Source: an uncultured bacterium
Lineage (GTDB): Bacteria; Edwardsbacteria; AC1; EtOH8
Reading direction: 5' to 3'
NCBI GenBank assembly: GCA_964518765.1
Contig: CAZFJC010000005.1
Span: 54,403 to 118,402 of the forward strand
DNA: 64,000 bases
Made by a program: the position numbers and the translations under genes. This document shows, piece after piece, positions 1,458 through 50,474 of the stretch. The notes beneath the pieces are model-generated. The model was given only the letters and a program-made list of their open reading frames with translations. It did no database searches and was not told the DNA's origin. The first letter of the stretch is position 1; each line of letters begins with the position of its first letter.

Positions 1458-1949
1458 GTCCTTCTCCAAGTTGCGTTTGAAATAACGCCTTACCCCGCGA
1501 AGCGGTGCAGGGCAGGTCTTAAAGTATAAATTATAACCGAATTCGGCCCCTATGTCAACTCGCCCCGCCTGTAAGTGTGATAGCATAATGATTATGTCAG
1601 GATCTAACTGCCGTGTTAAAATGTCAGGATATGAAAAAAGAACACATTACCCCTACCGGGACGGAGTTGAACAGGCTCGACACCGTCCCGCGTTCCCTTC
1701 ACGGGACGCTTACGGCGGCCCGGGCCCCCGACAACCGCTTCCCCTGCCATAATCGCCTCCTTCGATCGTCCCCCGCCTCCCAAACGGCAACATCAGGGCT
1801 GCCCACAAAGACCGGACCATCAAAACCCTCAAAACCCCGGACGGCATCAAGCCTCTGCCTATAATAACCCCTCCCCTTTCCCCGGTGACAAGCGCCCAGC
1901 CGTGGCCTCCCAAGCCTCAACCGCTGCATCCCGACATTTTTACTTCGTA

Positions 1950-1997
1950 GTTAATCCGACATATCGACGTTGCTTCGACGGGTGCCCCTTTTGGCAG
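1950..1997. repeat. AT-rich ACGT/GTCG-periodic element directly 3' of the ribF stop
   Basis: Minus strand reads GTCGAAGCAACGTCGATATGTCGG; same family as 10465-10508, 45039-45091 and 45455-45491. Confidence 0.4.
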
Positions 1998-2924
1998 TCA
2001 CAAGAGTAGCCGGGCGCGGCCGGCGTCCCTGGCCATGGCCCTCACCAGCTCCTGCTGGGAACTGAATCTCTTCTCCGGCCTCAGCCGCACTTTCAATCTC
2101 ACTTCGATATGGCTGGCCCGGGACGGTGGCGGGCCGGTAAGCGAATGGAACTCTATGGACAACATCCCCCGATTGGAAACGGTCGGCCTGGTGCCTATAT
2201 AGAGCAGGCCTTGATAATCCCTCCTGGCGATGATGGCAGAAGCCACATATACCCCGCTGGCCGGGATCAGCTGCTCTTTGTGTGTGAGCTCCAGGTTGAC
2301 GGTGGGAAAGCCTATTTTACCACCCAGGCCCTGCCCTCTGACCACCAATCCCTTCATGGCGTACGGCCTTCCCAGCATCCGGTTGGCCAGATCGATGTCG
2401 CCCCCGAGCAGCGCCATCTTGATCGCGGTGCTGCCGATCTTCAACCCGCCTTCCTTGAGTGGCCGGACCTCGGAGACCCGAAATCCGTATTTTCCGCCCA
2501 GCTTCCGAAGTAATGAAAGATTGCCCGAGCGTCCCCGCCCGAAACCGCAGTCGCTGCCGCAGACGACATGGGAGACCCGGAGCCTCTCCGCCAGGATCGT
2601 CCTCACGAAATCCTCCGGCCCCAGTTTCGCCACCTCCGGGGTGAACCTGATCACCACCAGGACATCCACCCCGGCCCGCTCCAGGATCAGCTCCTTATCC
2701 TTCAGGGAGATGAGGGCCCCCGGCCACCCGGGCTTGCCCAGCACCAGCTGGGGCGAAGGATCGAAGGTGATCACCGCACTGTCGTGGCCCCTCTTCTTGG
2801 CGATGGCTGTCAATGACCTGATGATGGCCATATGCCCCCGGTGCAGGCCGTCGAACACGCCCAGGGCGGCCACCGAGCCCGGCCTCTCCCGTCCGTATTT
2901 GCTGAGCCGCTTGACTATCAGCAT
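1998..2924 (-). CDS. ribF: bifunctional riboflavin kinase / FAD synthetase
   Basis: 308-aa product with the FAD-synthetase N-terminus (ALGVFDGLHRGH) and a riboflavin-kinase C-terminal domain. Confidence 0.9.
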   Translation of the reverse strand: MLIVKRLSKYGRERPGSVAALGVFDGLHRGHMAIIRSLTAIAKKRGHDSAVITFDPSPQLVLGKPGWPGALISLKDKELILERAGVDVLVVIRFTPEVAKLGPEDFVRTILAERLRVSHVVCGSDCGFGRGRSGNLSLLRKLGGKYGFRVSEVRPLKEGGLKIGSTAIKMALLGGDIDLANRMLGRPYAMKGLVVRGQGLGGKIGFPTVNLELTHKEQLIPASGVYVASAIIARRDYQGLLYIGTRPTVSNRGMLSIEFHSLTGPPPSRASHIEVRLKVRLRPEKRFSSQQELVRAMARDAGRARLLL

Positions 2925-7570: not shown

Positions 7571-8780
7571 GGACCTCCTCCACCTTCATTGACGCCTCGC
7601 CCTTCCAGAACCTGATCCGAGCCCTGTCTCCCTTCGCCAGCCTTCCAGCCTCCCTGACCGCTTTTCCCCTCCGGTCGAAGCAGATGCTGTAACCCCTCCC
7701 TAACACTGCCGCCGGGTCCAGGGCCGACAGCAGTGCTTCCATCCTTGAGGTTTTAAACACGGCCGCCTGGTAGCTGCCGAGGATACCGGCATTAGCCCTG
7801 GAGGCAAGCACATCCAGCGTTTGGCGCTTCTGGTCGATCATAGAAACCAACAGGTTCATCCCGTGGCTTCGTCGGAGCGAATCAAGTCGGGAACGGTATC
7901 CGTCTACCATGCCCTTCAGCGCCAGTTCCATCCTCTCACGGCTCCCGTCCAAGGAGCTCTGCACCTCCTCCCGGCTTGGTACCGCCATCTCGGCCGCGGC
8001 CGAGGGCGTCGGCGCCCGGAGGTCGGCGGCGAAGTCGGCCAGGGTGAAGTCCACCTCATGCCCCACCGCCGAAATGACAGGCAACCTGGAGCCGGCTATG
8101 GCCCGGACCGTCTCCTCCTCGTTGAAGGCCCAAAGGTCCTCCATCGATCCCCCGCCCCGGCCGACTATCAGCACGTCCACCCGTTCGAATTCGTTGAACT
8201 CAGCAATGGCCCGGGCTATCTCCGCGGCCGCCCCCGTCCCCTGGACCGGCACCGGATTGAGAATGAGCTCTATGCCCGGCCACCGCCGCCTGGCCACCTT
8301 GATGATGTCGCGGACAGCCGCCCCGGTGGGCGAGGTGACGATGCCGATGGCGCGCGGCAAGGCCGGGATCGGCCTTTTCCTGGCCTGGTCGAAAAGCCCC
8401 TCGGCCTCAAGCTTGCGCTTCAGGCGCTCCAGGGCCAGGGCCAGCTCCCCCTGCCCGGCCGGCTGCAGCTGTTGCACATTGAGCTGGTATTGGCCAGCCC
8501 GCTCGAAGACTGTTATATCGCCCTGAGCCAGCACCTGCATTCCGTCCTGGGGAAAGATGCGCAACGTCTGGGCCGCGCCCCGGAACATGACGCAGCGCAG
8601 CTGGCTGGCTGAGTCTTTGAGGGTAAAGTACAGGTGGCCCGAAGAGTGGGCGGTGAAATTGGAGACCTCGCCCCGCACCCACAGCCTGGGAAACCCGGAC
8701 TCCAGCGCCTGTTTGACCCGTGAGGTCAGCTGGGAGACGGTCAGTATGTTTCTGGTTTCTTCGGGCATGTGGCTGACCAC
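7563..8780 (-). CDS. xseA: exodeoxyribonuclease VII large subunit
   Basis: 405 aa with an OB-fold N-terminus (LWVRGEVSNF) and the ExoVII catalytic core. Overlaps xseB by 8 nt. Confidence 0.9.
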   Translation of the reverse strand: MVSHMPEETRNILTVSQLTSRVKQALESGFPRLWVRGEVSNFTAHSSGHLYFTLKDSASQLRCVMFRGAAQTLRIFPQDGMQVLAQGDITVFERAGQYQLNVQQLQPAGQGELALALERLKRKLEAEGLFDQARKRPIPALPRAIGIVTSPTGAAVRDIIKVARRRWPGIELILNPVPVQGTGAAAEIARAIAEFNEFERVDVLIVGRGGGSMEDLWAFNEEETVRAIAGSRLPVISAVGHEVDFTLADFAADLRAPTPSAAAEMAVPSREEVQSSLDGSRERMELALKGMVDGYRSRLDSLRRSHGMNLLVSMIDQKRQTLDVLASRANAGILGSYQAAVFKTSRMEALLSALDPAAVLGRGYSICFDRRGKAVREAGRLAKGDRARIRFWKGEASMKVEEVHG

Positions 8781-8783
8781 CCC

Positions 8784-9695
8784 TTAATCCCCTCCTTGCC
8801 AAGGAGGGGAAATAGAGGAGGTGGCCGCCTTGACGCAGTTGCGCAGCAGCATGGCCCGGGTCAGCGGCCCCACCCCGCCCGGCACCGGAGTTATATAAGA
8901 GGCGATTTTCTCGGCCGACTCGAAGTCAACGTCTCCCACCAGCCGGAAGCCGCTCTTGGCCGAGGGGTCCTCGATCCGATTGACCCCCACATCCACCACC
9001 ACGCAATTGTTGTTCAGCATGTCCCCGGTGATGATCCCCGGCGAGCCGGCGGCGGCGATGACGATGTCCGCCTGCTTGGTGTAATAGGCCAGCCCCCGGG
9101 TACGGGTGTGACAGACGGTGACCGTGGCGTCCCCCCGGTCCGACTTCTGGGTCAGCATGTTGGCCAGGGGCCGTCCTACGATGTTGGAGCGGCCCACGAT
9201 TACTATATATTTTCCCGGTATCTCGATCCCGGTCCTGACCAGTATCTCCACCACCCCGGCCGGGGTGCAGGGCAAAAAGCGGGGCCGGCCCTGGGTCAAA
9301 AGGCCCACGTTCTCAGGATGGAAGCAGTCAACGTCCTTGAGCGGCGATATCTTCCGGAAGGCTGCCTGCTCGTCCAGGCCCTTGGGCAGTGGCGACTGGA
9401 CAAGTATCCCGTGGATGGTTGTATCTTTGTTAAGCTTGTCGACCTGGGCAAGCAGTTCGTCCTGGGTGGTGGTCTCCGGCATCTCGATAACCGTGGACTT
9501 GATGCCGGTCTCCTGGCAGTCCTTGTGCTTGTTGCGCACGTAGACCTGTGAGGCCGGGTCCGAGCCCACGATGATGACGGCCAAGTGGGGCTCTTTCCCC
9601 TTTGCCCTTAATCCTTGGACCTCTTGGGCAACCTCCCCCTTGATCTCGATCGCTATTTTCTTGCCGTCAATTACTATTCCCATATCGGCTTTCAA
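8784..9695 (-). CDS. folD: bifunctional 5,10-methylene-THF dehydrogenase / cyclohydrolase
   Basis: Typical FolD sequence (HLAVIIVGSDPASQVYVRNK...GILVQSPLP...). Alternative start 12 nt downstream at MGIVIDG. Confidence 0.9.
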   Translation of the reverse strand: MKADMGIVIDGKKIAIEIKGEVAQEVQGLRAKGKEPHLAVIIVGSDPASQVYVRNKHKDCQETGIKSTVIEMPETTTQDELLAQVDKLNKDTTIHGILVQSPLPKGLDEQAAFRKISPLKDVDCFHPENVGLLTQGRPRFLPCTPAGVVEILVRTGIEIPGKYIVIVGRSNIVGRPLANMLTQKSDRGDATVTVCHTRTRGLAYYTKQADIVIAAAGSPGIITGDMLNNNCVVVDVGVNRIEDPSAKSGFRLVGDVDFESAEKIASYITPVPGGVGPLTRAMLLRNCVKAATSSISPPWQGGD

Positions 9696-10464
9696 GGGCC
9701 AAGCTCTCTATTTTTCGAGAAAAGCTGTTTCGATCATCGATCTCCACCACCACCGCATTCAGCCTGACCTCCCCCTCGGCCGTCTCGAACTTCTGCGGCA
9801 TCCCGGTCAAGAAGCGCCTGAGCACCGCCTCCTTCTGCATGCCGATCACCCCGTCGAAGCCTCCGGTCATGCCGACGTCGGTGATGTAGGCCGTGCCATT
9901 GGGGAGTATCCTCTCGTCGGCCGTCTGGACGTGGGTGTGGGTTCCGATGACCGCCGTGGCCCGTCCGTCGAGATGCCAGCCCAAGGCGACTTTTTCCGAC
10001 GTAGCCTCGGCGTGGATATCGACAACGATGATATCAGTTTCCTTCCTGATTTTTTCGACCATCTCGGTGGCCTTGCGGAAAGGGCAGTCCAACGCCTGCA
10101 TGAACACCCGGCCCTGCAAACAGAAGACCCCGACCCTGGCTCCATTTCTGGCTTTAAAGATGCCGGACCTGGCGCCCACCGCTCCCTCCGGGTAATTGGC
10201 CGGGCACAGTATCCTGGGCTCCTTGGCTATATACCACACGGAGTCCTTCTTGTCCCACAGGTGGTTTCCCCCCGTCAGGACGTCTATCCCCAGGCTGAGC
10301 AGTTCACGTCCCACGCTCTCGGTGATGCCGAACCCGGCCGCCGCGTTCTCTCCATTGGCGATGACGAAGTCGATCCCGTGCCTCTCGGCCAGCCCCGGCA
10401 GCAGCTGTTTGACCGCCTGTCTCCCCGGCCGCCCGATAATATCGCCGATGAATAATACTTTCAA
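9667..10464 (-). CDS. ymdB: TIGR00282-family metallophosphoesterase (YmdB-like 2',3'-cNMP phosphodiesterase)
   Basis: MKVLFIGDIIGRPGR...GENAAAGFGIT...GGNHLWD. Sits next to rny as in the B. subtilis rny-ymdB operon. Confidence 0.85.
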   Translation of the reverse strand: MKVLFIGDIIGRPGRQAVKQLLPGLAERHGIDFVIANGENAAAGFGITESVGRELLSLGIDVLTGGNHLWDKKDSVWYIAKEPRILCPANYPEGAVGARSGIFKARNGARVGVFCLQGRVFMQALDCPFRKATEMVEKIRKETDIIVVDIHAEATSEKVALGWHLDGRATAVIGTHTHVQTADERILPNGTAYITDVGMTGGFDGVIGMQKEAVLRRFLTGMPQKFETAEGEVRLNAVVVEIDDRNSFSRKIESLALESRYGNSN

Positions 10465-10508
10465 ACTGACGTTCGACGTACCACGTTCAACGTATTAACG
10501 CTAATACG
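10465..10508. repeat. AT-rich ACGT-periodic element filling the rny / ymdB intergenic gap
   Basis: Minus strand reads ACGTtgaACGTggtACGTcgaACGTcag: four ACGT units at 7-nt spacing, i.e. ACGTNNN repeated four times. Confidence 0.45.
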
Positions 10509-12071
10509 TTACTTGGCGTAACCGATCCCCCGCGTCTCCCGGATGACCGTCACCTTGATCTGCCCGGGGTACTGCAGGGAGCTTTCTATCTTCTGGGCGA
10601 TCTCGTTGGCCATATCCGTGGTCCGGGCGTCGTTGACCTCCTCCGGGGTGACGATGATGCGCACCTCGCGCCCGGCCTGGATGGCGTAGGCCTTGCTAAC
10701 CCCCTTGAAGGAGTAGGCCACCTCCTCCAGCTTCTCCAGCCGCTTGATATAGGCCTCCAGAGACTCGCGACGGGCGCCGGGCCTGGCCCCGGAGATGGCG
10801 TCGGCCGCGGCCACCAGCACCGAGATGGGCGAGATAGCCTCGATGTCCTCGTGATGGGCCCCGATGGCGTTGACCACCACCGCGTTCTCCCCGTATTTCT
10901 TGGCCAGGTCCATGCCGATCTGGCTGTGGGTGCCCTCGACGCTATGGTCCACTGCCTTGCCCAGGTCGTGCAGTAGGCCGGCCCGCTTGGCCAGGGCCTG
11001 GTCCAGCTCCAGCTCGCCGGCCATGGTGGCCGCCAGGAAGGCCACCTCCTTGGAGTGCTGTAGAACATTCTGCCCGTAGCTGGTACGGTACTTCAGCCTG
11101 CCCAGCAGCTGGATGACCTCGGGGTGCAGTCCGGGCACCCCCACCTCCAGGGCCACCGACTCTCCCGCCTCTTTGATGGAGCGGTCGACCTCGCCTTTGG
11201 CCTTTTCGATGACCTCCTCTATTCGGGCCGGTTGGATACGTCCGTCGGCTATCAGGCGCTCCATGGCCATCCGGGCCACCTCCCGCCGCACCGGGTCGAA
11301 GGCCGAGATGACGATGGCTTCGGGGGTGTCGTCTATCAGCACCTCCACCCCGGTGGCCGCCTCAAAGGCCCTGATGTTCCGGCCCTCGCGGCCGATGATC
11401 CTCCCCTTCATCTCGTCCGAGGCCAGCGGCACCACGCTGACGGTGGTCTCGGCGGTGTGCTCGCCGGCGTAGCGCTGGATGGCCTGGACGATTATCTGCT
11501 TGGCCTCGCGCTCGGCGTTCTCCCTGGCCTCGTCCCTGATGTTCTTGATGAGCTGGGCCGCCTCGTGCCTGGCCTGGACCTCCAAGTTCTGCATCAGGAT
11601 CCTCTTGGCCTCCTCCTGGGTGAGCCCGGCGATCTGCTCCAGCTTGGTGTTCTGCTCGTCTATCAGGGTGGTCAGCCGCTCGTCCTTGGCCCGCAGCACC
11701 CGCTCCTTGGCAGTGGCCTCGCGCTCCCGGTTCTCCACCTCCCGCTCCTTGCGGTTGACGATGTCCACCTTGTGGTCGATCTGCTTCTCCCTCTCGATCA
11801 GCCGCCCCTCCAGCTCCTTGAGCTCCGCCTTCTTGGCCTGGGTCTCCTTCTCGAAATTCGACTTTAGCCGGTACCACTCCTCTTTGGCCTGTACCTGGGC
11901 TGCCTTCTTGTAGGTGGCCGACTCTCGTTGGGCCTCGGCCACGATCTTCTCGGCCAGCTTCTCGGCCCCGGCCAGCCTGGCCTCGCCCATCTTCTGGTGC
12001 AGCAGATAGCCCAGAAAAAAACCCAGGGCCGCACCTAACACCGATATGATGATCCAGATCACCACTCCCAT
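10509..12071 (-). CDS. rny: ribonuclease Y
   Basis: 520 aa with an N-terminal TM helix, coiled-coil, KH domain and HD domain (LLHDLGKA). Confidence 0.95.
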
Positions 12072-12097
12072 ATTGCCTCCCTTCCGATGCTTATATG

Positions 12098-12286
12098 TAA
12101 AATTCCCCGCCTGTGCCGGGCAGGCGAACGTTTTGAACCCGTTAAAAAGTGGTGCCGCCTCGAACGCTTTAGGCTTCCCCGCGCCGGCGGGGCGTGCACA
12201 CCACGTCCGAAGGTTATGGCCCTTGATAACAGGTGTTGGCTCAAAAACTGTCCGCGAGCTTCGGGCACTGCAGGGAATGCTTGCTC
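12098..12286 (-). ncRNA. ssrS: candidate 6S RNA (SsrS), ~190 nt, between zapA and rny
   Basis: Promoter TTGAAA-N17-TATATT at complement(12293..12321) lies directly after the zapA stop. Transcript 5' segment (GCAUUCCCUGCAGUGCC) pairs with the 3' segment (GGCAC..GGGGAAU) to give a closing helix, followed by UUUU. Internal GAAGCCUAAAGCG and GGGUUCAA resemble the E. coli 6S 3' strand. Position downstream of zapA matches E. coli and many other bacteria. Confidence 0.45.
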
Positions 12287-12328
12287 AAGACAAATATACC
12301 ACCAGGCCGGACCGATTTCAAGGGGGAT

Positions 12329-18954: not shown

Positions 18955-19085
18955 AAACACCTCTAGAATCTATGTCATCCCGATAGCGGCTCCTTGCCAC
19001 ACAAGTTGAGGAATGACATTAACTACATCGTTTACCCTTCAACTTGCCAAGCATGGAGCCCTGCTCAGGGTGACCTGCGTATAGG

Positions 19086-37940: not shown

Positions 37941-38046
37941 TTTTTATTTTCTCCTATCCCGGAAAGTCAACGTTGAACTGGAAACCGCTGGCGCGGCGCA
38001 ATCCTTAGATTCCTGGATTCCTAAGCGGTCTGCCGGCGGCGATCGG

Positions 38047-44465: not shown

Positions 44466-45038
44466 TTAGCATCCCCGGCCCAGCTCGAAGGCCTTCCTGT
44501 TCATCTCCACCGTCTTGGGCGGAACCCGCCTGGTGATAACCTCAAGCCACTTGTCGGTCGGAAGCTCCAGCCTTTTGGAGAGCGCCCCCAAAAGCACCAT
44601 GTTGATGGTCTTGGGACTGCCCGCCTGCTCCGATAGCCTCAGACCGTCGCAGAGCACCGTGCCCGGGACCTGGGATTTGATGCGGTCGATGATGTCTTGC
44701 GGGTACTCGGCCTTGCCGGTGGCCACCGTCATCGGCATCACCTGCTGTCGGTTGATTATTACGGCGCCGTCCCTCTTCAGGAAGTCCAGGTAGCGGGCGG
44801 TCTCCATCTCCTCGAAGGAGAGGACGACGTCGGCCTCGCCCTGGCGGATCAGCGGCGAATGGACCCTGTCCCCGTAACGCACGTGGCTGACCACGCTGCC
44901 GCCCCGCTGGGCCATGCCGTGGACTTCTGATTTCTTGGCGTCGAATCCGCAGGCCATGGCCGTCTCGGCGATGATGTCCCCGGCCAAGAGCACCCCCTGA
45001 CCCCCGACGCCGCAGATGACTATGTTTACGGTTTTCAC
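44466..45038 (-). CDS. iorB: indolepyruvate:ferredoxin oxidoreductase beta subunit
   Basis: GTG start (VKTVNIVICGVGGQGVL) with AGGAG RBS 7 nt upstream. Confidence 0.85.
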   Translation of the reverse strand: MKTVNIVICGVGGQGVLLAGDIIAETAMACGFDAKKSEVHGMAQRGGSVVSHVRYGDRVHSPLIRQGEADVVLSFEEMETARYLDFLKRDGAVIINRQQVMPMTVATGKAEYPQDIIDRIKSQVPGTVLCDGLRLSEQAGSPKTINMVLLGALSKRLELPTDKWLEVITRRVPPKTVEMNRKAFELGRGC

Positions 45039-45091
45039 TTGTCGGCTCCTTGTTCGTGGCAACATATTAACGTTGGACGTTTGACGTAACG
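45039..45091. repeat. ACGT-periodic AT-rich element 3' of the 4HB gene; direct repeat of 45455..45491
   Basis: Plus strand ATTAACGTTGGACGTTTGACGTAACGCTATGACCGTTTTC versus the upstream copy ATTCAACGTTACTACGCCTAACGTTACTACGTTCACCGTTTC. Confidence 0.5.
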
Positions 45092-45454
45092 CTATGACCG
45101 TTTTCTCAAGCTTTGTTGCAGCCCCTTCAGCATCACGCTGATCTCGATCGCTTCCTGTTGATTGCACCGGTATTCTTCGGATCCCAGGAAACCGATTTCT
45201 TTCGCTATATCTAATCCTGCCATTACCTCGAAAGTTGAACGCTGAGCGATGTCTAGGAACCTTATAAACTCCTTGGTCGATCTGCTTCCCGCTCCCTCCG
45301 CGATATTCAAAACGATGGAGTAGGCCGCCCGGCGCAACTGTGAGGTTAATCCCAGAACTTCGCTTTTCGGAAACTTGGCAGTCAATTCATAAATAGTCTT
45401 CGTATAAGCGACCGCCTTCTGATAAACTCGAAGGTCCCTGAACTTGTTCATCAC
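45092..45454 (-). CDS. four-helix-bundle protein (TIGR02436, 23S rRNA intervening-sequence protein family)
   Basis: 120 aa (KFRDLRVYQKAVAYTKTIYELTAKFPKSEVLGLTSQLRRAAYSIVLNIAEG...). Inserted between iorA and iorB. Confidence 0.8.
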   Translation of the reverse strand: MMNKFRDLRVYQKAVAYTKTIYELTAKFPKSEVLGLTSQLRRAAYSIVLNIAEGAGSRSTKEFIRFLDIAQRSTFEVMAGLDIAKEIGFLGSEEYRCNQQEAIEISVMLKGLQQSLRKRS

Positions 45455-45491
45455 TCTACATTCAACGTTACTACGCCTAACGTTACTACGT
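45455..45491. repeat. ACGT-periodic AT-rich element 5' of the 4HB gene, overlapping the iorA stop region
   Basis: See 45039..45091. Shared 3' block ACCGTTT(T)C coincides with the C-terminal codons of iorA (...KR*) and of the 4HB gene (...KRS*). Confidence 0.5.
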
Positions 45492-47246
45492 TCACCGTTT
45501 CATCGCCTTCTTGGGGCACAGCGACGCACACACCTCGCACCCGGTGCAGAAGATGGGGTCGATGTGCGATTTCTTCCTCTTGGCGTCGAAGGAGATGGCC
45601 GGGCAGCCCAGCTTGAGGCACAGCCTGCAGCCCACGCATTCATCTTCGTCAACGTGCAGGGGCGGCTTGAACTTCTTGTCTATCAGGATGCAGGGCGACT
45701 TGGCGATGACCACCGAGACACCGTCGTGGCTCGCCGCCGCCTTGAGCGCCGCCTCGGTAGCCTTGAGGTCAAGCGGGTCCACGGTTTTGACGTCCTTCAC
45801 CCCGCACGCCCGGCAGATCTCCTCCAGCGACAGCACCGGAGCCGGTTGGCCCTGGAGTGTTTTCCCCGAGCCCGGGTTCTCCTGGTGGCCGGTCATGGCC
45901 GTGATCCGGTTGTCCAGTATCACCACCGTGCCCCGGGCGTTGTTGTAGACCATGTCGATCAGGCCCGTTATCCCGGAGTGGAAGAAGGTAGAGTCGCCGA
46001 TGACGGCCACTGTCTTTTGGGCCATCTCCGGGCCTAGGGCCTTCTCCAGGCCCATGGCCGCGGTCACCGAGCCGCCCATGCAGATGACGGTGTCCATGGC
46101 CTCCAGCGGCTCCATCATCCCTAAAGTGTAGCAGCCGATGTCGCCGGTGGCCGTCAGCTTCAGCTTGTTGATGGCGTAGAACACTCCGCGGTGCGGACAG
46201 CCGGGACAGAGCACCGGCGGCCGGCCCGGCAGCTCCATGTTCTTATAGGTCGGCTCCGCCTGTAGGCCGAAGGCCCGGGCCACCGCCGTCGGGTCCAGCT
46301 CGCCGACGATAGGCACCCTGTCCTTCCCGGAGATCGGCCTGTCGAACTGGCACTTGCCCTTGACGGAATAGCCCTGGGCCTTTATCTGCTCCTCCAGGAA
46401 CGGGTCGTTCTCCTCGATGACATAGACCTCGTCCACCGACGAGATGAAGTTGGCAATCAGCTTGCCGGGCGGCGGGTAGGTAAGTGCTAGTTTTAAATAG
46501 GAGGCATCCGGGAAGACTTCTTTGGCGTACTGGTAGGAGATACCGCTGGTGATGATGCCCAGCTTGGTGCTCCCCCTTTCAATCTTGTTCCCCTGAAAAG
46601 TCTCGCCGTACTCGGCCAGCTTCTTCAGCCTCTCCTCAACCTTGACGTGCAGCTTCCTGGCATGGGCCGGAATGGTTATCCTTTTTTTGATATCCTTGAC
46701 GTATCCCATCGGCTTGTGCTCCCTCCTCTCACCCGGCTCCACCGCCCCCTTGGAGTGGGAGATGCGGGTGGTCAGCCTTAGCAGCACCGGGGTGTCGAAC
46801 TTCTCGGAGATCTCGAAGGCCAGCCTGGCGTACTCCAGGCACTCCTGGGAGTCCGAAGGCTCCAGGCAGGGTATCTTGGCCATCTTGGCGTAGTAGCGGT
46901 TGTCCTGTTCGTTCTGAGAGGAGTGCATGCCCGGGTCGTCGGCCGACACCACCACCAGCCCCCCGGTGGCCCCGATGTAGCCCATGGAGAACAGGGGGTC
47001 GGCGGCCACGTTCAGGCCCACGTGCTTCATGCAGGTCAGGGCCCGGGCTCCGCCGAAGCTGGCCCCGGCCGCCACCTCCAGGCCCACCTTCTCGTTGGTT
47101 GCCAGCTCGGCGTAGACCTCCTGGTACTTGGCCAGGTTCTCCAGTATCTCGGTGGAGGGCGTCCCCGGATAGGCCGAGACCACGTTGACCCCGGCCTCCC
47201 AGGCCCCCCGGGCCACCGCCTCGTTTCCGGAAAGGAGTACTTTCAT
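45492..47246 (-). CDS. iorA: indolepyruvate:ferredoxin oxidoreductase alpha subunit
   Basis: 584 aa with a TPP-binding domain and a C-terminal 2x[4Fe-4S] region (CVGCRLCLKLGCP, CTGCEVCASLCP). Confidence 0.9.
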   Translation of the reverse strand: MKVLLSGNEAVARGAWEAGVNVVSAYPGTPSTEILENLAKYQEVYAELATNEKVGLEVAAGASFGGARALTCMKHVGLNVAADPLFSMGYIGATGGLVVVSADDPGMHSSQNEQDNRYYAKMAKIPCLEPSDSQECLEYARLAFEISEKFDTPVLLRLTTRISHSKGAVEPGERREHKPMGYVKDIKKRITIPAHARKLHVKVEERLKKLAEYGETFQGNKIERGSTKLGIITSGISYQYAKEVFPDASYLKLALTYPPPGKLIANFISSVDEVYVIEENDPFLEEQIKAQGYSVKGKCQFDRPISGKDRVPIVGELDPTAVARAFGLQAEPTYKNMELPGRPPVLCPGCPHRGVFYAINKLKLTATGDIGCYTLGMMEPLEAMDTVICMGGSVTAAMGLEKALGPEMAQKTVAVIGDSTFFHSGITGLIDMVYNNARGTVVILDNRITAMTGHQENPGSGKTLQGQPAPVLSLEEICRACGVKDVKTVDPLDLKATEAALKAAASHDGVSVVIAKSPCILIDKKFKPPLHVDEDECVGCRLCLKLGCPAISFDAKRKKSHIDPIFCTGCEVCASLCPKKAMKR

Positions 47247-47389: not shown

Positions 47390-47438
47390 ACCACCCCTCG
47401 CTCCCCTCCTTAGAAAAGGAGGGGATTAAGGGGTGGTT
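47390..47438. repeat. REP-like palindromic element, copy 1
   Basis: ACCACCCCT-cgc-TCCCCTCCTT-agaa-AAGGAGGGGA-ttaa-GGGGTGGT. Confidence 0.55.
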
Positions 47439-47473: not shown

Positions 47474-47510
47474 GTTCCACTCCTTGATTAAGGAGGGGAT
47501 AAAAGGGGAG
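47474..47510. repeat. REP-like palindromic element, partial copy 2
   Basis: CCACTCCTTgattAAGGAGGGGAtaaaAGGGGAG. Confidence 0.45.
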
Positions 47511-50418: not shown

Positions 50419-50474
50419 CCCGACCACCCCTCGTTTCCCTCCTTGATGAAGGAGGGGACAAAGGGGTGGTCGGG
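50419..50474. repeat. REP-like palindromic element, copy 3
   Basis: CCCGACCACCCCT-cgtt-TCCCTCCTT-gatg-AAGGAGGGGA-caa-AGGGGTGGTCGGG; near-perfect 55-bp palindrome. Confidence 0.55.

What the first reader, a model, noticed from the sequence alone, without database searches (positions are those of the whole stretch)
10465..10508. Family of AT-rich intergenic elements built from ACGT units at a 7-nt period, always directly 3' of minus-strand stop codons
The rny/ymdB gap is filled by ACGTtgaACGTggtACGTcgaACGTcag, that is (ACGTNNN) four times. Related arrays occur 3' of ribF (1950..1997), on both sides of the 4HB gene (45039..45091 and 45455..45491), as the perfect 10-bp palindrome TCAACGTTGA at roughly 37971..37985 between tsf and rpsB, and as AACGTT inside the 12072..12328 region. 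AACGTT and ACGT arrays should be rare in a ~62% GC genome. The periodic spacing suggests a protein-binding array or a miniature repeat element rather than an intrinsic terminator, since none has a U-run.
Basis: seen in the sequence. Interest (0 to 1): 0.5.

Follow-up and report, generated by a model that had tools for sequence, protein, structure and literature searches.

The report
Inverted seven-base repeats around IVS-type gene
The ACGT-every-seven-bases arrays are real: they are the paired, mutually complementary arms of a small cassette like the intervening sequences of 23S rRNA, present once around a four-helix-bundle gene and once as a gene-less hairpin, a known kind of element found here inside ordinary operons.

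Summary
The core observation holds. The rny/ymdB gap (10465..10508) carries (ACGTNNN)x4, with no such match in 100 shuffles. Only two other places in the window are alike: the two flanks of the 120-aa four-helix-bundle gene (PF05635/TIGR02436) that sits between iorA and iorB. The other three cited sites are not members. One of them is 6S RNA.

The two flanks of that gene are reverse complements of each other (18 of 19 bp in a close relative), and predicted RNA folds close the ORF with this stem. The rny/ymdB array is a hairpin of the same sequence family with no ORF. Relatives keep arrays at both sites, differing by 7-, 14- or 15-nt indels.

In 74 diverse metagenomic PF05635 loci, about half have complementary flanks, and their periodicity peaks at 7 nt. 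This matches the 23S rRNA intervening sequence of Coxiella (S23p ORF, terminal inverted repeats, tandem heptamers, RNase III excision) and the inverted heptamer pairs of Xanthomonas.

My best reading is an IVS-like element outside rRNA whose arms form a double-stranded RNA stem in the operon transcript. RNase III cleavage is inferred, not shown, and no RNA-specific signature was found. I rate it a new variant of a known kind, of moderate interest.

The parts
10465..10508 (-). ORF-less ACGT heptad array that fills the rny/ymdB gap. Gene-sense sequence: CGTATTAGCGTTAATACGTTGAACGTGGTACGTCGAACGTCAGT.
   Evidence: (ACGTNNN)x4 at 10469..10493, 0 of 100 shuffles. Relatives keep an array at this site, 51 nt in L081 and 65 nt in L083.
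10488..10511 (-). Predicted hairpin UAACGUAUUA-GCGU-UAAUACGUUG (10 pairs including one terminal G-U, 4-nt loop). Its base contains the rny stop codon (10509..10511).
   Evidence: MFE and centroid; z = -1.9 for the 66-nt context. Equivalent hairpins of about 15 bp follow the rny stop in L081 and L083. L086 has a GTAT/ATAC heptad hairpin at the same place.
45465..45492 (-). 5' arm of the cassette: AACGTAGTAACGTTAGGCGTAGTAACGT. It starts in the iorA stop codon and is built from 8+7-nt units (15-nt super-period).
   Evidence: TRF period 15, 2.9 copies; aligns with the reverse complement of the 3' arm.
45092..45451 (-). Four-helix-bundle protein gene (PF05635 23S_rRNA_IVP, TIGR02436), 119 aa from the ATG at 45451. 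The ORF listing begins one codon earlier, at GTG 45454.
   Evidence: TIGR02436, 109.6 bits; PF05635, 118.7 bits; dN/dS 0.06 against L514; PDB 2GSC XCC0516, E 5.6e-18.
45061..45087 (-). 3' arm of the cassette: ACGTCAAACGTCCAACGTTAATATGTT. It is complementary to the 5' arm and is followed by the iorB Shine-Dalgarno AAGGAG and the GTG start at 45038.
   Evidence: The whole-cassette fold pairs it with the 5' arm in both the MFE and the centroid structure.
45039..45091 (-). Whole gap between the four-helix-bundle gene and iorB, which contains the 3' arm.
   Evidence: iorB = 44466..45038, PF01558.

Best explanation
The ACGT arrays are the inverted arms, built from 7-8-nt repeats, of an element with the architecture of a 23S rRNA intervening sequence (IVS) that lies outside rRNA. 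One copy brackets a conserved four-helix-bundle (S23p/PF05635) gene embedded co-directionally between iorA and iorB. The rny/ymdB copy is the same kind of stem closed by a tetraloop, with no ORF.

Shown: the arms are complementary; they belong to one sequence family; they are kept at both sites in relatives; they change by gain and loss of 7-, 14- or 15-nt units; the same architecture recurs around PF05635 genes in many unrelated bacteria.

Inferred: in the polycistronic transcript the arms pair into a double-stranded stem. That stem sets the cassette (or the rny/ymdB junction) apart and is probably a substrate for RNase III, as in true IVSs. The effect would be to uncouple or tune the stability and translation of the flanking cistrons. 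The ACGT core is a lineage-specific version of an older GTAGTAA/TTACTAC unit. Being self-complementary, it lets the same unit serve on both arms.
For: (1) Complementary arms. In L514 the pair ACGTAGTAACGTTAGACGT / ACGTCCAACGTTACTACGT is 18 of 19 bp. The window, L519, L521 and L602 give similar results.
(2) RNA folds of the whole 460-nt cassette close the ORF with the arm-arm stem, in both the MFE and the centroid structure, for the window and for L514 (L514 z = -2.8).
(3) The ORF-less rny/ymdB arrays share strings of up to 15 nt with cassette 5' arms (ACGTAGTAACGTTA with the window's arm) and of 12 nt with cassette 3' arms (ACGTCCAACGTT, CGTTAATACGTT). The L083 copy reads GTAGTA-ACGC-TACTAC, which is the cassette's core stem closed by a tetraloop.
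(4) Orthologs of the 4HB gene sit at iorA|iorB down to 66% identity, always with arrays on both sides and a conserved core stem GTAGTAACG/CGTTACTAC.
(5) Over their best-conserved stretches the arms differ less between the window and L514 than synonymous sites do (pS 0.40): about 3 of 24 nt in the 5' arm and 0 of 22 nt in the 3' arm, counted by eye on the alignments.
(6) Generality. In 74 diverse PF05635 loci, the 5' flank against the reverse complement of the 3' flank beats the 95th percentile of mismatched-locus pairs in 38 loci and the 99th in 17. Flank autocorrelation peaks at lags 7 and 14. Heptad periodicity is stronger there than in other intergenic DNA of the same loci.
(7) These genes are co-directional with both neighbours in 41 of 56 loci, with gaps of about 50 nt.
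(8) Precedent. The Coxiella 23S IVS has an S23p ORF, a 28-bp terminal inverted repeat, tandem GACAGAT heptamers whose number varies between strains, and RNase III cleavage at the first repeat (PMC4990558).
Against: Mismatches in the arms of 35 loci show no excess of G.U over A.C (57 against 65), so nothing marks the constraint as acting on sense-strand RNA rather than on DNA. The six orthologous cassettes show no compensatory pair. The window's own stem is AU-rich and imperfect, and fold z-scores are modest (-1.1 to -2.3). Shuffles of ACGT-rich sequence fold well in any case. No RNase III data exist for this organism. The stable position over deep divergence argues against recent mobility. Only one ORF-less copy was seen in 64 kb, so the 'family' in this genome is small as sampled.
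Confidence: 0.55

Rival explanations
1. The arrays are neutral heptameric simple-sequence repeats. They arise and turn over by polymerase slippage in short operon-internal gaps. The inverted arrangement is a by-product (hairpin-templated repair or duplication) and has no function in RNA.
For: Indels of 7, 14 or 15 nt separate close relatives. Heptamer arrays of other sequences fill other gaps in related genomes, for example (AAATCAA)x4 from stop to start in L605 4688..4742. Several distant phyla have heptad arrays just after rny. The literature reports an over-representation of heptameric SSRs and a slippage hypothesis (PMC4692102). There is no G.U bias.
Against: Both arms stay complementary in cassettes whose heptamer sequences are entirely different. 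The best-conserved arm stretches diverge less than synonymous sites. An array is retained at the same two sites across 66-96% protein identity.
Confidence: 0.2
2. The heptads are binding sites for a protein that contacts one unit per subunit. The binder could be the pentameric four-helix-bundle protein itself (regulating itself plus extra sites such as rny/ymdB) or a cold-shock-type single-strand binder.
For: There is a tight physical association between PF05635 genes and heptad arrays. The period is conserved while the unit sequence changes between cassettes. The protein is under strong purifying selection (dN/dS 0.06). Its PDB relative 2GSC is deposited with 5 chains, and the Coxiella paper describes the Xanthomonas S23p as a homopentameric toroid. 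The family includes the DGR protein Avd (weak match to NF033474). CSP binding to heptamer repeats has been proposed for TAACTGA arrays (PMC4679880).
Against: No binding data exist. A 7-nt period does not match the helical repeat of duplex DNA. This model does not by itself explain the arm complementarity.
Confidence: 0.15
3. The arms are DNA-level terminal inverted repeats of a non-autonomous mobile element (MITE- or REP-like) moved by a transposase encoded elsewhere. The 4HB gene is cargo and the rny/ymdB copy is an empty element.
For: The anatomy is inverted-repeat bracketing of a small gene plus a cargo-less copy. The units contain a GTAG motif reminiscent of REP 5' ends (from my own knowledge, not tested). 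At the dinB/deoA site, L081 has a PF13366 gene bracketed by octamer arrays where the window has a different hairpin. Many close 4HB homologs lie on short contigs, as repeats often do. The absence of G.U bias is compatible with DNA-level constraint.
Against: The cassette is at the same site in every relative down to 66% identity. No target-site duplication is evident. No transposase or RAYT was seen in the window. No empty iorA|iorB site was found.
Confidence: 0.1
4. The hairpin shortens the effective distance between the upstream stop codon and a downstream start that lacks a Shine-Dalgarno sequence. This would permit termination-reinitiation coupling for ymdB (TTG start) and for the 4HB ORF.
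For: ymdB and the 4HB ORF have no recognisable SD in the window, L081 or L086, whereas most genes in the window do. The rny stop codon lies in the base of the hairpin.
Against: This is purely structural inference. iorB, downstream of the 3' arm, has its own strong SD (AAGGAG). It does not explain why the arms are heptad arrays.
Confidence: 0.07
5. The arrays are intrinsic (Rho-independent) terminators that mark operon ends.
For: A hairpin lies directly after a stop codon.
Against: There is no U-run and the stem is AU-rich. The consensus scan finds no terminator-like site in the gap. The next gene starts 0-20 nt after the array on the same strand.
Confidence: 0.03

Closest known systems
23S rRNA intervening sequences that carry an S23p ORF (Coxiella burnetii, Leptospira and others; PMC4990558)
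   Same: A PF05635/four-helix-bundle ORF enclosed by terminal inverted repeats that form a stem. The arm upstream of the ORF contains tandem heptamers whose number varies between strains. The ORF has a poor SD. ORF-less IVSs also exist.
   Different: This element is not in rRNA. It lies between two protein-coding genes of an operon, and the ORF-less copy lies between rny and ymdB. The ORF is under strong purifying selection (dN/dS 0.06), whereas the Coxiella ORF is decaying. The heptad unit has an ACGT / GTAGTAA core instead of GACAGAT. RNase III excision is untested.
Inverted pairs of GGGAATC heptamer arrays in Xanthomonas (Rehm et al. 2015, PMC4692102)
   Same: Intergenic heptameric tandem repeats that often occur as convergent (inverted) pairs able to form stem-loops. 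Position is conserved between related species while length and sequence vary. Function is unknown.
   Different: The unit is G-rich and forms quadruplexes, with about 180-190 arrays per genome. That paper notes no link to four-helix-bundle genes. Here the units are AT-rich with a self-complementary ACGT core, and only three arrays were seen in 64 kb.
Heptamer direct repeats of cyanobacteria, Beggiatoaceae and Bacteroidetes (STRR; TAACTGA repeats, MacGregor 2015, PMC4679880)
   Same: Period-7 arrays in short intergenic gaps, often ending just before a start codon. A post-transcriptional role has been suggested.
   Different: Those are mostly direct, not inverted, arrays of one fixed heptamer, present in hundreds of copies.
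REP/BIME elements and MITEs
   Same: Short imperfect palindromes in gaps between co-directional genes, with a possible role in mRNA stability. MITE-like anatomy (inverted ends, no transposase).
   Different: No high-copy consensus has been shown, no RAYT or transposase seen, and no target-site duplication. The arms are internally periodic at 7-8 nt, which REPs are not.

Membership tests
23S rRNA intervening sequence (IVS) with S23p ORF | Inserted in helix 25 or 45 of a 23S rRNA gene | tested here: not met
   The element lies between iorA and iorB (or between rny and ymdB). Rfam finds only 6S RNA and one tRNA in the window. None of the first 40 metagenomic PF05635 loci scanned lies in rRNA.
23S rRNA intervening sequence (IVS) with S23p ORF | Terminal inverted repeats that pair into a stem enclosing the element | tested here: met
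   (18 of 19 bp in L514). (MFE and centroid structures close the ORF with this stem).
23S rRNA intervening sequence (IVS) with S23p ORF | ORF of the S23p / PF05635 / TIGR02436 family inside the loop | tested here: met
   for 45092..45451. Not met for the rny/ymdB copy, which has no ORF; ORF-less IVSs are known.
23S rRNA intervening sequence (IVS) with S23p ORF | Excision from the precursor RNA by RNase III | not testable with these tools
   Needs RNA end mapping or an in-vitro cleavage assay.
Heptameric intergenic tandem repeats / inverted heptamer pairs | Head-to-tail units of 7 nt | tested here: met
   ACGT occurs at an exact 7-nt phase four times in the rny/ymdB gap. Units alternate 8 and 7 nt in the 4HB flanks (TRF period 15). 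The NNN positions vary, so the arrays are degenerate.
Heptameric intergenic tandem repeats / inverted heptamer pairs | Unit-number variation between close relatives at a conserved site | tested here: met
   The gap is 44, 51 and 65 nt in the window, L081 and L083, with indels of 7, 14 and 15 nt.
Heptameric intergenic tandem repeats / inverted heptamer pairs | Many copies dispersed over the genome | not testable with these tools
   Only 64 kb of this genome is available (3 arrays), plus about 20-kb pieces of relatives.
REP elements | High-copy conserved imperfect palindrome with an associated RAYT transposase | not tested
   No RAYT gene was noticed while reading the window, but its proteins were not searched for one and no genome-wide census was possible.
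MITE | Terminal inverted repeats flanked by a target-site duplication, with polymorphic insertion sites | tested here: inconclusive
   Inverted repeats are present. No duplication is evident at the arm ends. Every relative examined has the sites occupied.
Intrinsic terminator | GC-rich stem followed by a U-run | tested here: not met
   One search finds no site in 10465..10508. The stem is AU-rich and has no T-run.

The most novel reading that the evidence does not exclude
Genes of the PF05635 four-helix-bundle family, together with their inverted heptamer-repeat arms, form a widespread class of IVS-like cassettes that live inside ordinary operons and tRNA clusters, not only in 23S rRNA. Many of the unexplained intergenic heptamer arrays of bacteria (STRR, GGGAATC pairs, TAACTGA and similar) would then be ORF-less relics of such cassettes or extra target sites of them, possibly read by the pentameric protein, one heptad per subunit.
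Probability: 0.2. Interest if true: 0.75.

Novelty: new variant of a known kind. Interest (0 to 1): 0.5.

Why it matters
Two old puzzles touch here. One is why heptameric repeats are over-represented in bacterial intergenic DNA. The other is what the S23p/IVS elements are and how they persist.

This window shows an IVS-type cassette, with its heptad arms and a selected ORF, embedded in an mRNA operon of a candidate phylum, next to an ORF-less copy of the same stem. The survey of 74 loci suggests the architecture is general for the family.

If the arms are processed as double-stranded RNA, these cassettes would be built-in RNase III sites that reshape operon transcripts. If the protein binds the heptads, the family gains a first functional handle. 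Both ideas can be tested with simple assays.

Tried and rejected
(1) Are ACGT heptads special in public viral contigs? No. (ACGTNNN)x4 gave 65 stretches in a complete scan. The viral hits are generic tandem heptamers or octamers.

(2) The genome-contig scan with Rny returned only relatives of 51-59% identity. Close relatives came from the protein database instead.

(3) Exact look-ups of the window's Rny and 4HB proteins found nothing: the source genome is not on record.

(4) The test for G.U over A.C bias in arm mismatches showed no bias.

(5) RNAalifold on six orthologous arm pairs gave a conserved 9-bp core and zero compensatory pairs, so it is uninformative.

(6) A test for lineage-specific matching between ORF-less arrays and cassette arms (concerted evolution) showed no clean one-to-one pattern.

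(7) Tandem Repeats Finder sees only the 45456..45499 array (period 15). The rny/ymdB array is too degenerate for it.

(8) Rfam has no family for the arrays.

(9) The terminator reading is rejected.

(10) A first intergenic/coding ACGT comparison, using all ORFs of 90 aa or more as 'coding', failed because spurious GC-rich ORFs covered the gaps. It was redone with a curated gene map.

Full report
**Context.** The window comes from a relative of Candidatus Edwardsbacteria. The best Rny matches (84-96% identity) carry that name, the GC content is 62%, and nearly all genes are on the minus strand. Promoters look sigma-70-like, and most genes have GGAGG-type Shine-Dalgarno sequences.

**Checking the observation.** The rny/ymdB gap is 10465..10508. 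rny is 10509..12071 and ymdB is 9667..10464 with a TTG start; Pfam confirms both. On the gene-sense strand the gap reads TAA-CGTATTAGCGTTAATACGTTGAACGTGGTACGTCGAACGTCAGT-TTG.
- The exact pattern (ACGTNNN)x4 occurs once in the window, at 10469..10493, and in none of 100 dinucleotide-preserving shuffles, even with one mismatch allowed.
- A cluster scan finds only two other places with three or more closely spaced ACGT: 45070..45087 and 45465..45491, the two flanks of a small gene.
- Each of the three arrays has far more ACGT than shuffles of its own bases (P<1e-3).
- Together they hold 11 ACGT in 132 nt, against 1.74 per kb in other intergenic DNA and 2.19 per kb in coding DNA. There is therefore no general intergenic enrichment; the signal is these three arrays.

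**Sites that do not belong.**
- 12072..12328 is the 6S RNA gene (RF00013, 86.5 bits).
- 37971..37985 is one 10-bp palindrome.
- 1950..1997 has a single ACGT and is the arm of a different inverted repeat.

**Anatomy of the cassette.** The small gene (45092..45451) encodes a 119-aa four-helix-bundle protein of PF05635 (23S_rRNA_IVP) and TIGR02436. Its nearest solved relative is the Xanthomonas protein XCC0516, PDB 2GSC. The gene sits co-directionally between iorA (45492..47246) and iorB (44466..45038).
- The 5' flank starts in the iorA stop codon: TGA-ACGTAGTAACGTTAGGCGTAGTAACGTTGAATGTAGAGTG-ATG.
- The 3' flank reads TAG-CGTTACGTCAAACGTCCAACGTTAATATGTTGCC, followed by AAGGAG and the iorB start.
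- The two flanks are reverse complements of each other. The close relative L514 shows this best: ACGTAGTAACGTTAGACGT against ACGTCCAACGTTACTACGT, 18 of 19 bp.
- Folding the whole 460-nt cassette as RNA closes the ORF with this arm-arm stem in both the MFE and the centroid structure, for the window and for L514.

**The rny/ymdB array is the same thing without an ORF.**
- It forms a 10-bp hairpin whose base includes the rny stop codon (10488..10511).
- Relatives with 95-96% Rny identity have hairpins of about 15 bp at the same place.
- These arrays share strings of 12-15 nt with the cassette arms: ACGTAGTAACGTTA, ACGTCCAACGTT and CGTTAATACGTT.
- In L083 the array reads GTAGTA-ACGC-TACTAC, which is the cassette's core stem closed by a tetraloop.
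- A relative with 84% Rny identity (L086) has, in the same gap, a hairpin built from GTATNNN units on one arm and NNNATAC units on the other. The architecture is kept while the unit changes.

**Evolution.**
- Orthologs of the 4HB gene occupy the iorA|iorB site in every relative found, down to 66% protein identity, always with arrays on both sides.
- The protein is under strong purifying selection (dN/dS 0.06, window against L514).
- Over their best-conserved stretches the arms differ less than synonymous sites do, roughly 0-12% against pS 0.40. I counted this by eye on the alignments.
- Differences between relatives are largely indels of 7, 14 or 15 nt, that is, gain and loss of units.
- In more distant orthologs the 5' arm is made of (A/G)GTAGTA-type units and the 3' arm of TACTAC-type units. 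The conserved core is GTAGTAACG/CGTTACTAC. ACGT is therefore a derived, lineage-specific form of the unit.

**Generality.** A metagenome scan with the window's protein returned 80 loci with homologs of 35-70% identity. For the 74 loci with full flanks (including the window and three relatives):
- Alignment of the 90-nt 5' flank with the reverse complement of the 90-nt 3' flank was significant against shuffles (p<=0.01) in about half.
- It exceeded the 95th percentile of mismatched-locus pairs in 38 loci and the 99th in 17.
- The arms are tandem heptamers of many different sequences, such as TATGGCT, AAGTATG, GGAGACG, ATGGTTC and AGAATCA.
- Mean autocorrelation of the flanks peaks at lag 7 (0.37 and 0.34 against about 0.27) and again at lag 14.
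- Lag-7 periodicity of 0.45 or more occurs in 38% of 4HB flanks, 8% of other intergenic stretches in the same loci (only 24 stretches; Mann-Whitney p = 0.02) and 1% of coding windows.
- In the 70 metagenomic loci, both neighbours were identifiable in 56, and the genes are co-directional with both in 41 of those, with median gaps of about 50 nt.
- None of the first 40 scanned lies in rRNA; one lies between two tRNA genes.

**Comparison with what is known.**
- The Coxiella burnetii 23S IVS has an S23p ORF, a 28-bp terminal inverted repeat, tandem GACAGAT heptamers upstream of the ORF in strain-variable number, and RNase III cleavage at the first repeat (PMC4990558).
- Xanthomonas has about 70 convergent (inverted) pairs of GGGAATC heptamer arrays, conserved in position but variable in length, of unknown function (PMC4692102).
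- TAACTGA and STRR heptamer arrays are known in Beggiatoaceae, cyanobacteria and Bacteroidetes (PMC4679880).
- In four full-text searches I found no paper that links PF05635 genes outside rRNA to inverted heptamer arms. That is an absence in the searched library, not proof of novelty.

**Mechanism.** I commit to an IVS-like element outside rRNA whose arms pair in the operon transcript. The resulting stem probably serves as an RNase III site or structural insulator between cistrons.
- Shown: the anatomy, the conservation and the generality.
- Inferred: the RNA-level role.
- Against it: arm mismatches show no excess of G.U over A.C (57 against 65); orthologs show no compensatory changes; fold z-scores are modest. 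DNA-level constraint, protein binding to heptads, or slippage-driven neutral arrays therefore remain live rivals.
- The terminator reading is rejected.

**Dead end.** ACGT-heptad arrays in viral contigs looked exciting at first, with 65 stretches and several multi-copy contigs. Control tetramers and a control period were at least as frequent. That line says nothing specific about ACGT.

**Verdict.** The element is a new variant of a known kind. The more interesting lead is the family-wide link between four-helix-bundle genes and inverted heptamer arrays.

Noticed in passing
window 12100..12279 (-): 6S RNA gene (RF00013, 86.5 bits) between zapA and rny, with a predicted promoter TTGAAA-17-TATATT at 12321..12293. 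It explains the conserved 258-nt 'gap' upstream of rny, which is also present in L081.
   Followed up: yes
window 8776..8822, 47390..47437, 47476..47499, 50419..50474: A second, unrelated family of hairpin repeats: ACCACCCCT..CCCCTCCTT | AAGGAGGGG..AGGGGTGGT palindromes (22-26-nt arms, 78-86% complementary, 1-4-nt loops). They look REP-like and occur 3-4 times in 64 kb.
   Followed up: no
window 1590..1985 (-): A G-rich insert of about 300 nt between ribF and the rpsO promoter. It is bracketed by roughly 35-nt inverted arms that each contain two ATGTCGGRAT-type repeats, and it folds with a terminal stem (z = -2.2). It has no convincing ORF and no Rfam match. It is absent from L081, where the gap is 127 nt.
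   Followed up: partly
window 18974..19074; L081 2308..2935: The window and L083 have a long imperfect hairpin between dinB and deoA (GTCACCCTGAGCAGGGCTCC...GGAGCCGCTATCGGGATGAC). At the same site L081 has a 127-aa PF13366 (PDDEXK_3) gene bracketed by 26-nt inverted arms made of 8-nt repeats (CTCACAAAGGCACAGAGGCACCAAGG / CCTTTGTGCCTTCGTGTCTTTGTGAG). This is a second small-gene cassette with the same architecture.
   Followed up: partly
window 10462..10464 and 45449..45454: ymdB starts with TTG and has no Shine-Dalgarno sequence, in the window and in its relatives. The 4HB ORF most likely starts at the ATG at 45451, not the GTG at 45454, and also lacks a clear SD.
   Followed up: partly
L605 4688..4742 and 2582..2625; L521 3975..4010: Other operon-internal gaps in related genomes are filled by heptad arrays of different sequence, for example TAA-(AATCAAA)x3-ATG running from stop codon to start codon. 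Heptad arrays seem to be a general gap-filler in this lineage.
   Followed up: no
L006, L016, L028, L047 (just after the rny stop): Several distant phyla also have heptad arrays immediately downstream of rny, for example TCAAACGTCAAACGTGAGAC in a Melioribacteraceae MAG and (AGATTTN)x4 in L047. The best lag is 7 in 11 of 79 loci.
   Followed up: partly
L557 1339..2010; L572: A PF05635 gene with heptad arms sits between two tRNA genes in L557. The L572 downstream flank is near-identical, which suggests the same context, but L572 was not scanned for tRNAs. Cassettes may also ride in stable-RNA operons outside rRNA.
   Followed up: no
L109/L131/L141, L102/L116, L132/L152 (viral contigs): Some IMG/VR contigs carry 3-5 copies of ACGT-containing heptamer arrays, often right after a GC-rich hairpin (for example gggcggtttaccgccc-cgttct-ACGTTCCACGTTCTACGTTCTACGT, three times in L116). 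These look like repeated intergenic modules of unknown role.
   Followed up: no
L605 1917..1954: In the TA06-like ortholog the 4HB ORF reads through into the 3' ACGT array (ACGTCAAACGTCCAAC), which adds a C-terminal tail (...TITSNVQH). So the ACGT-type 3' arm is old.
   Followed up: no
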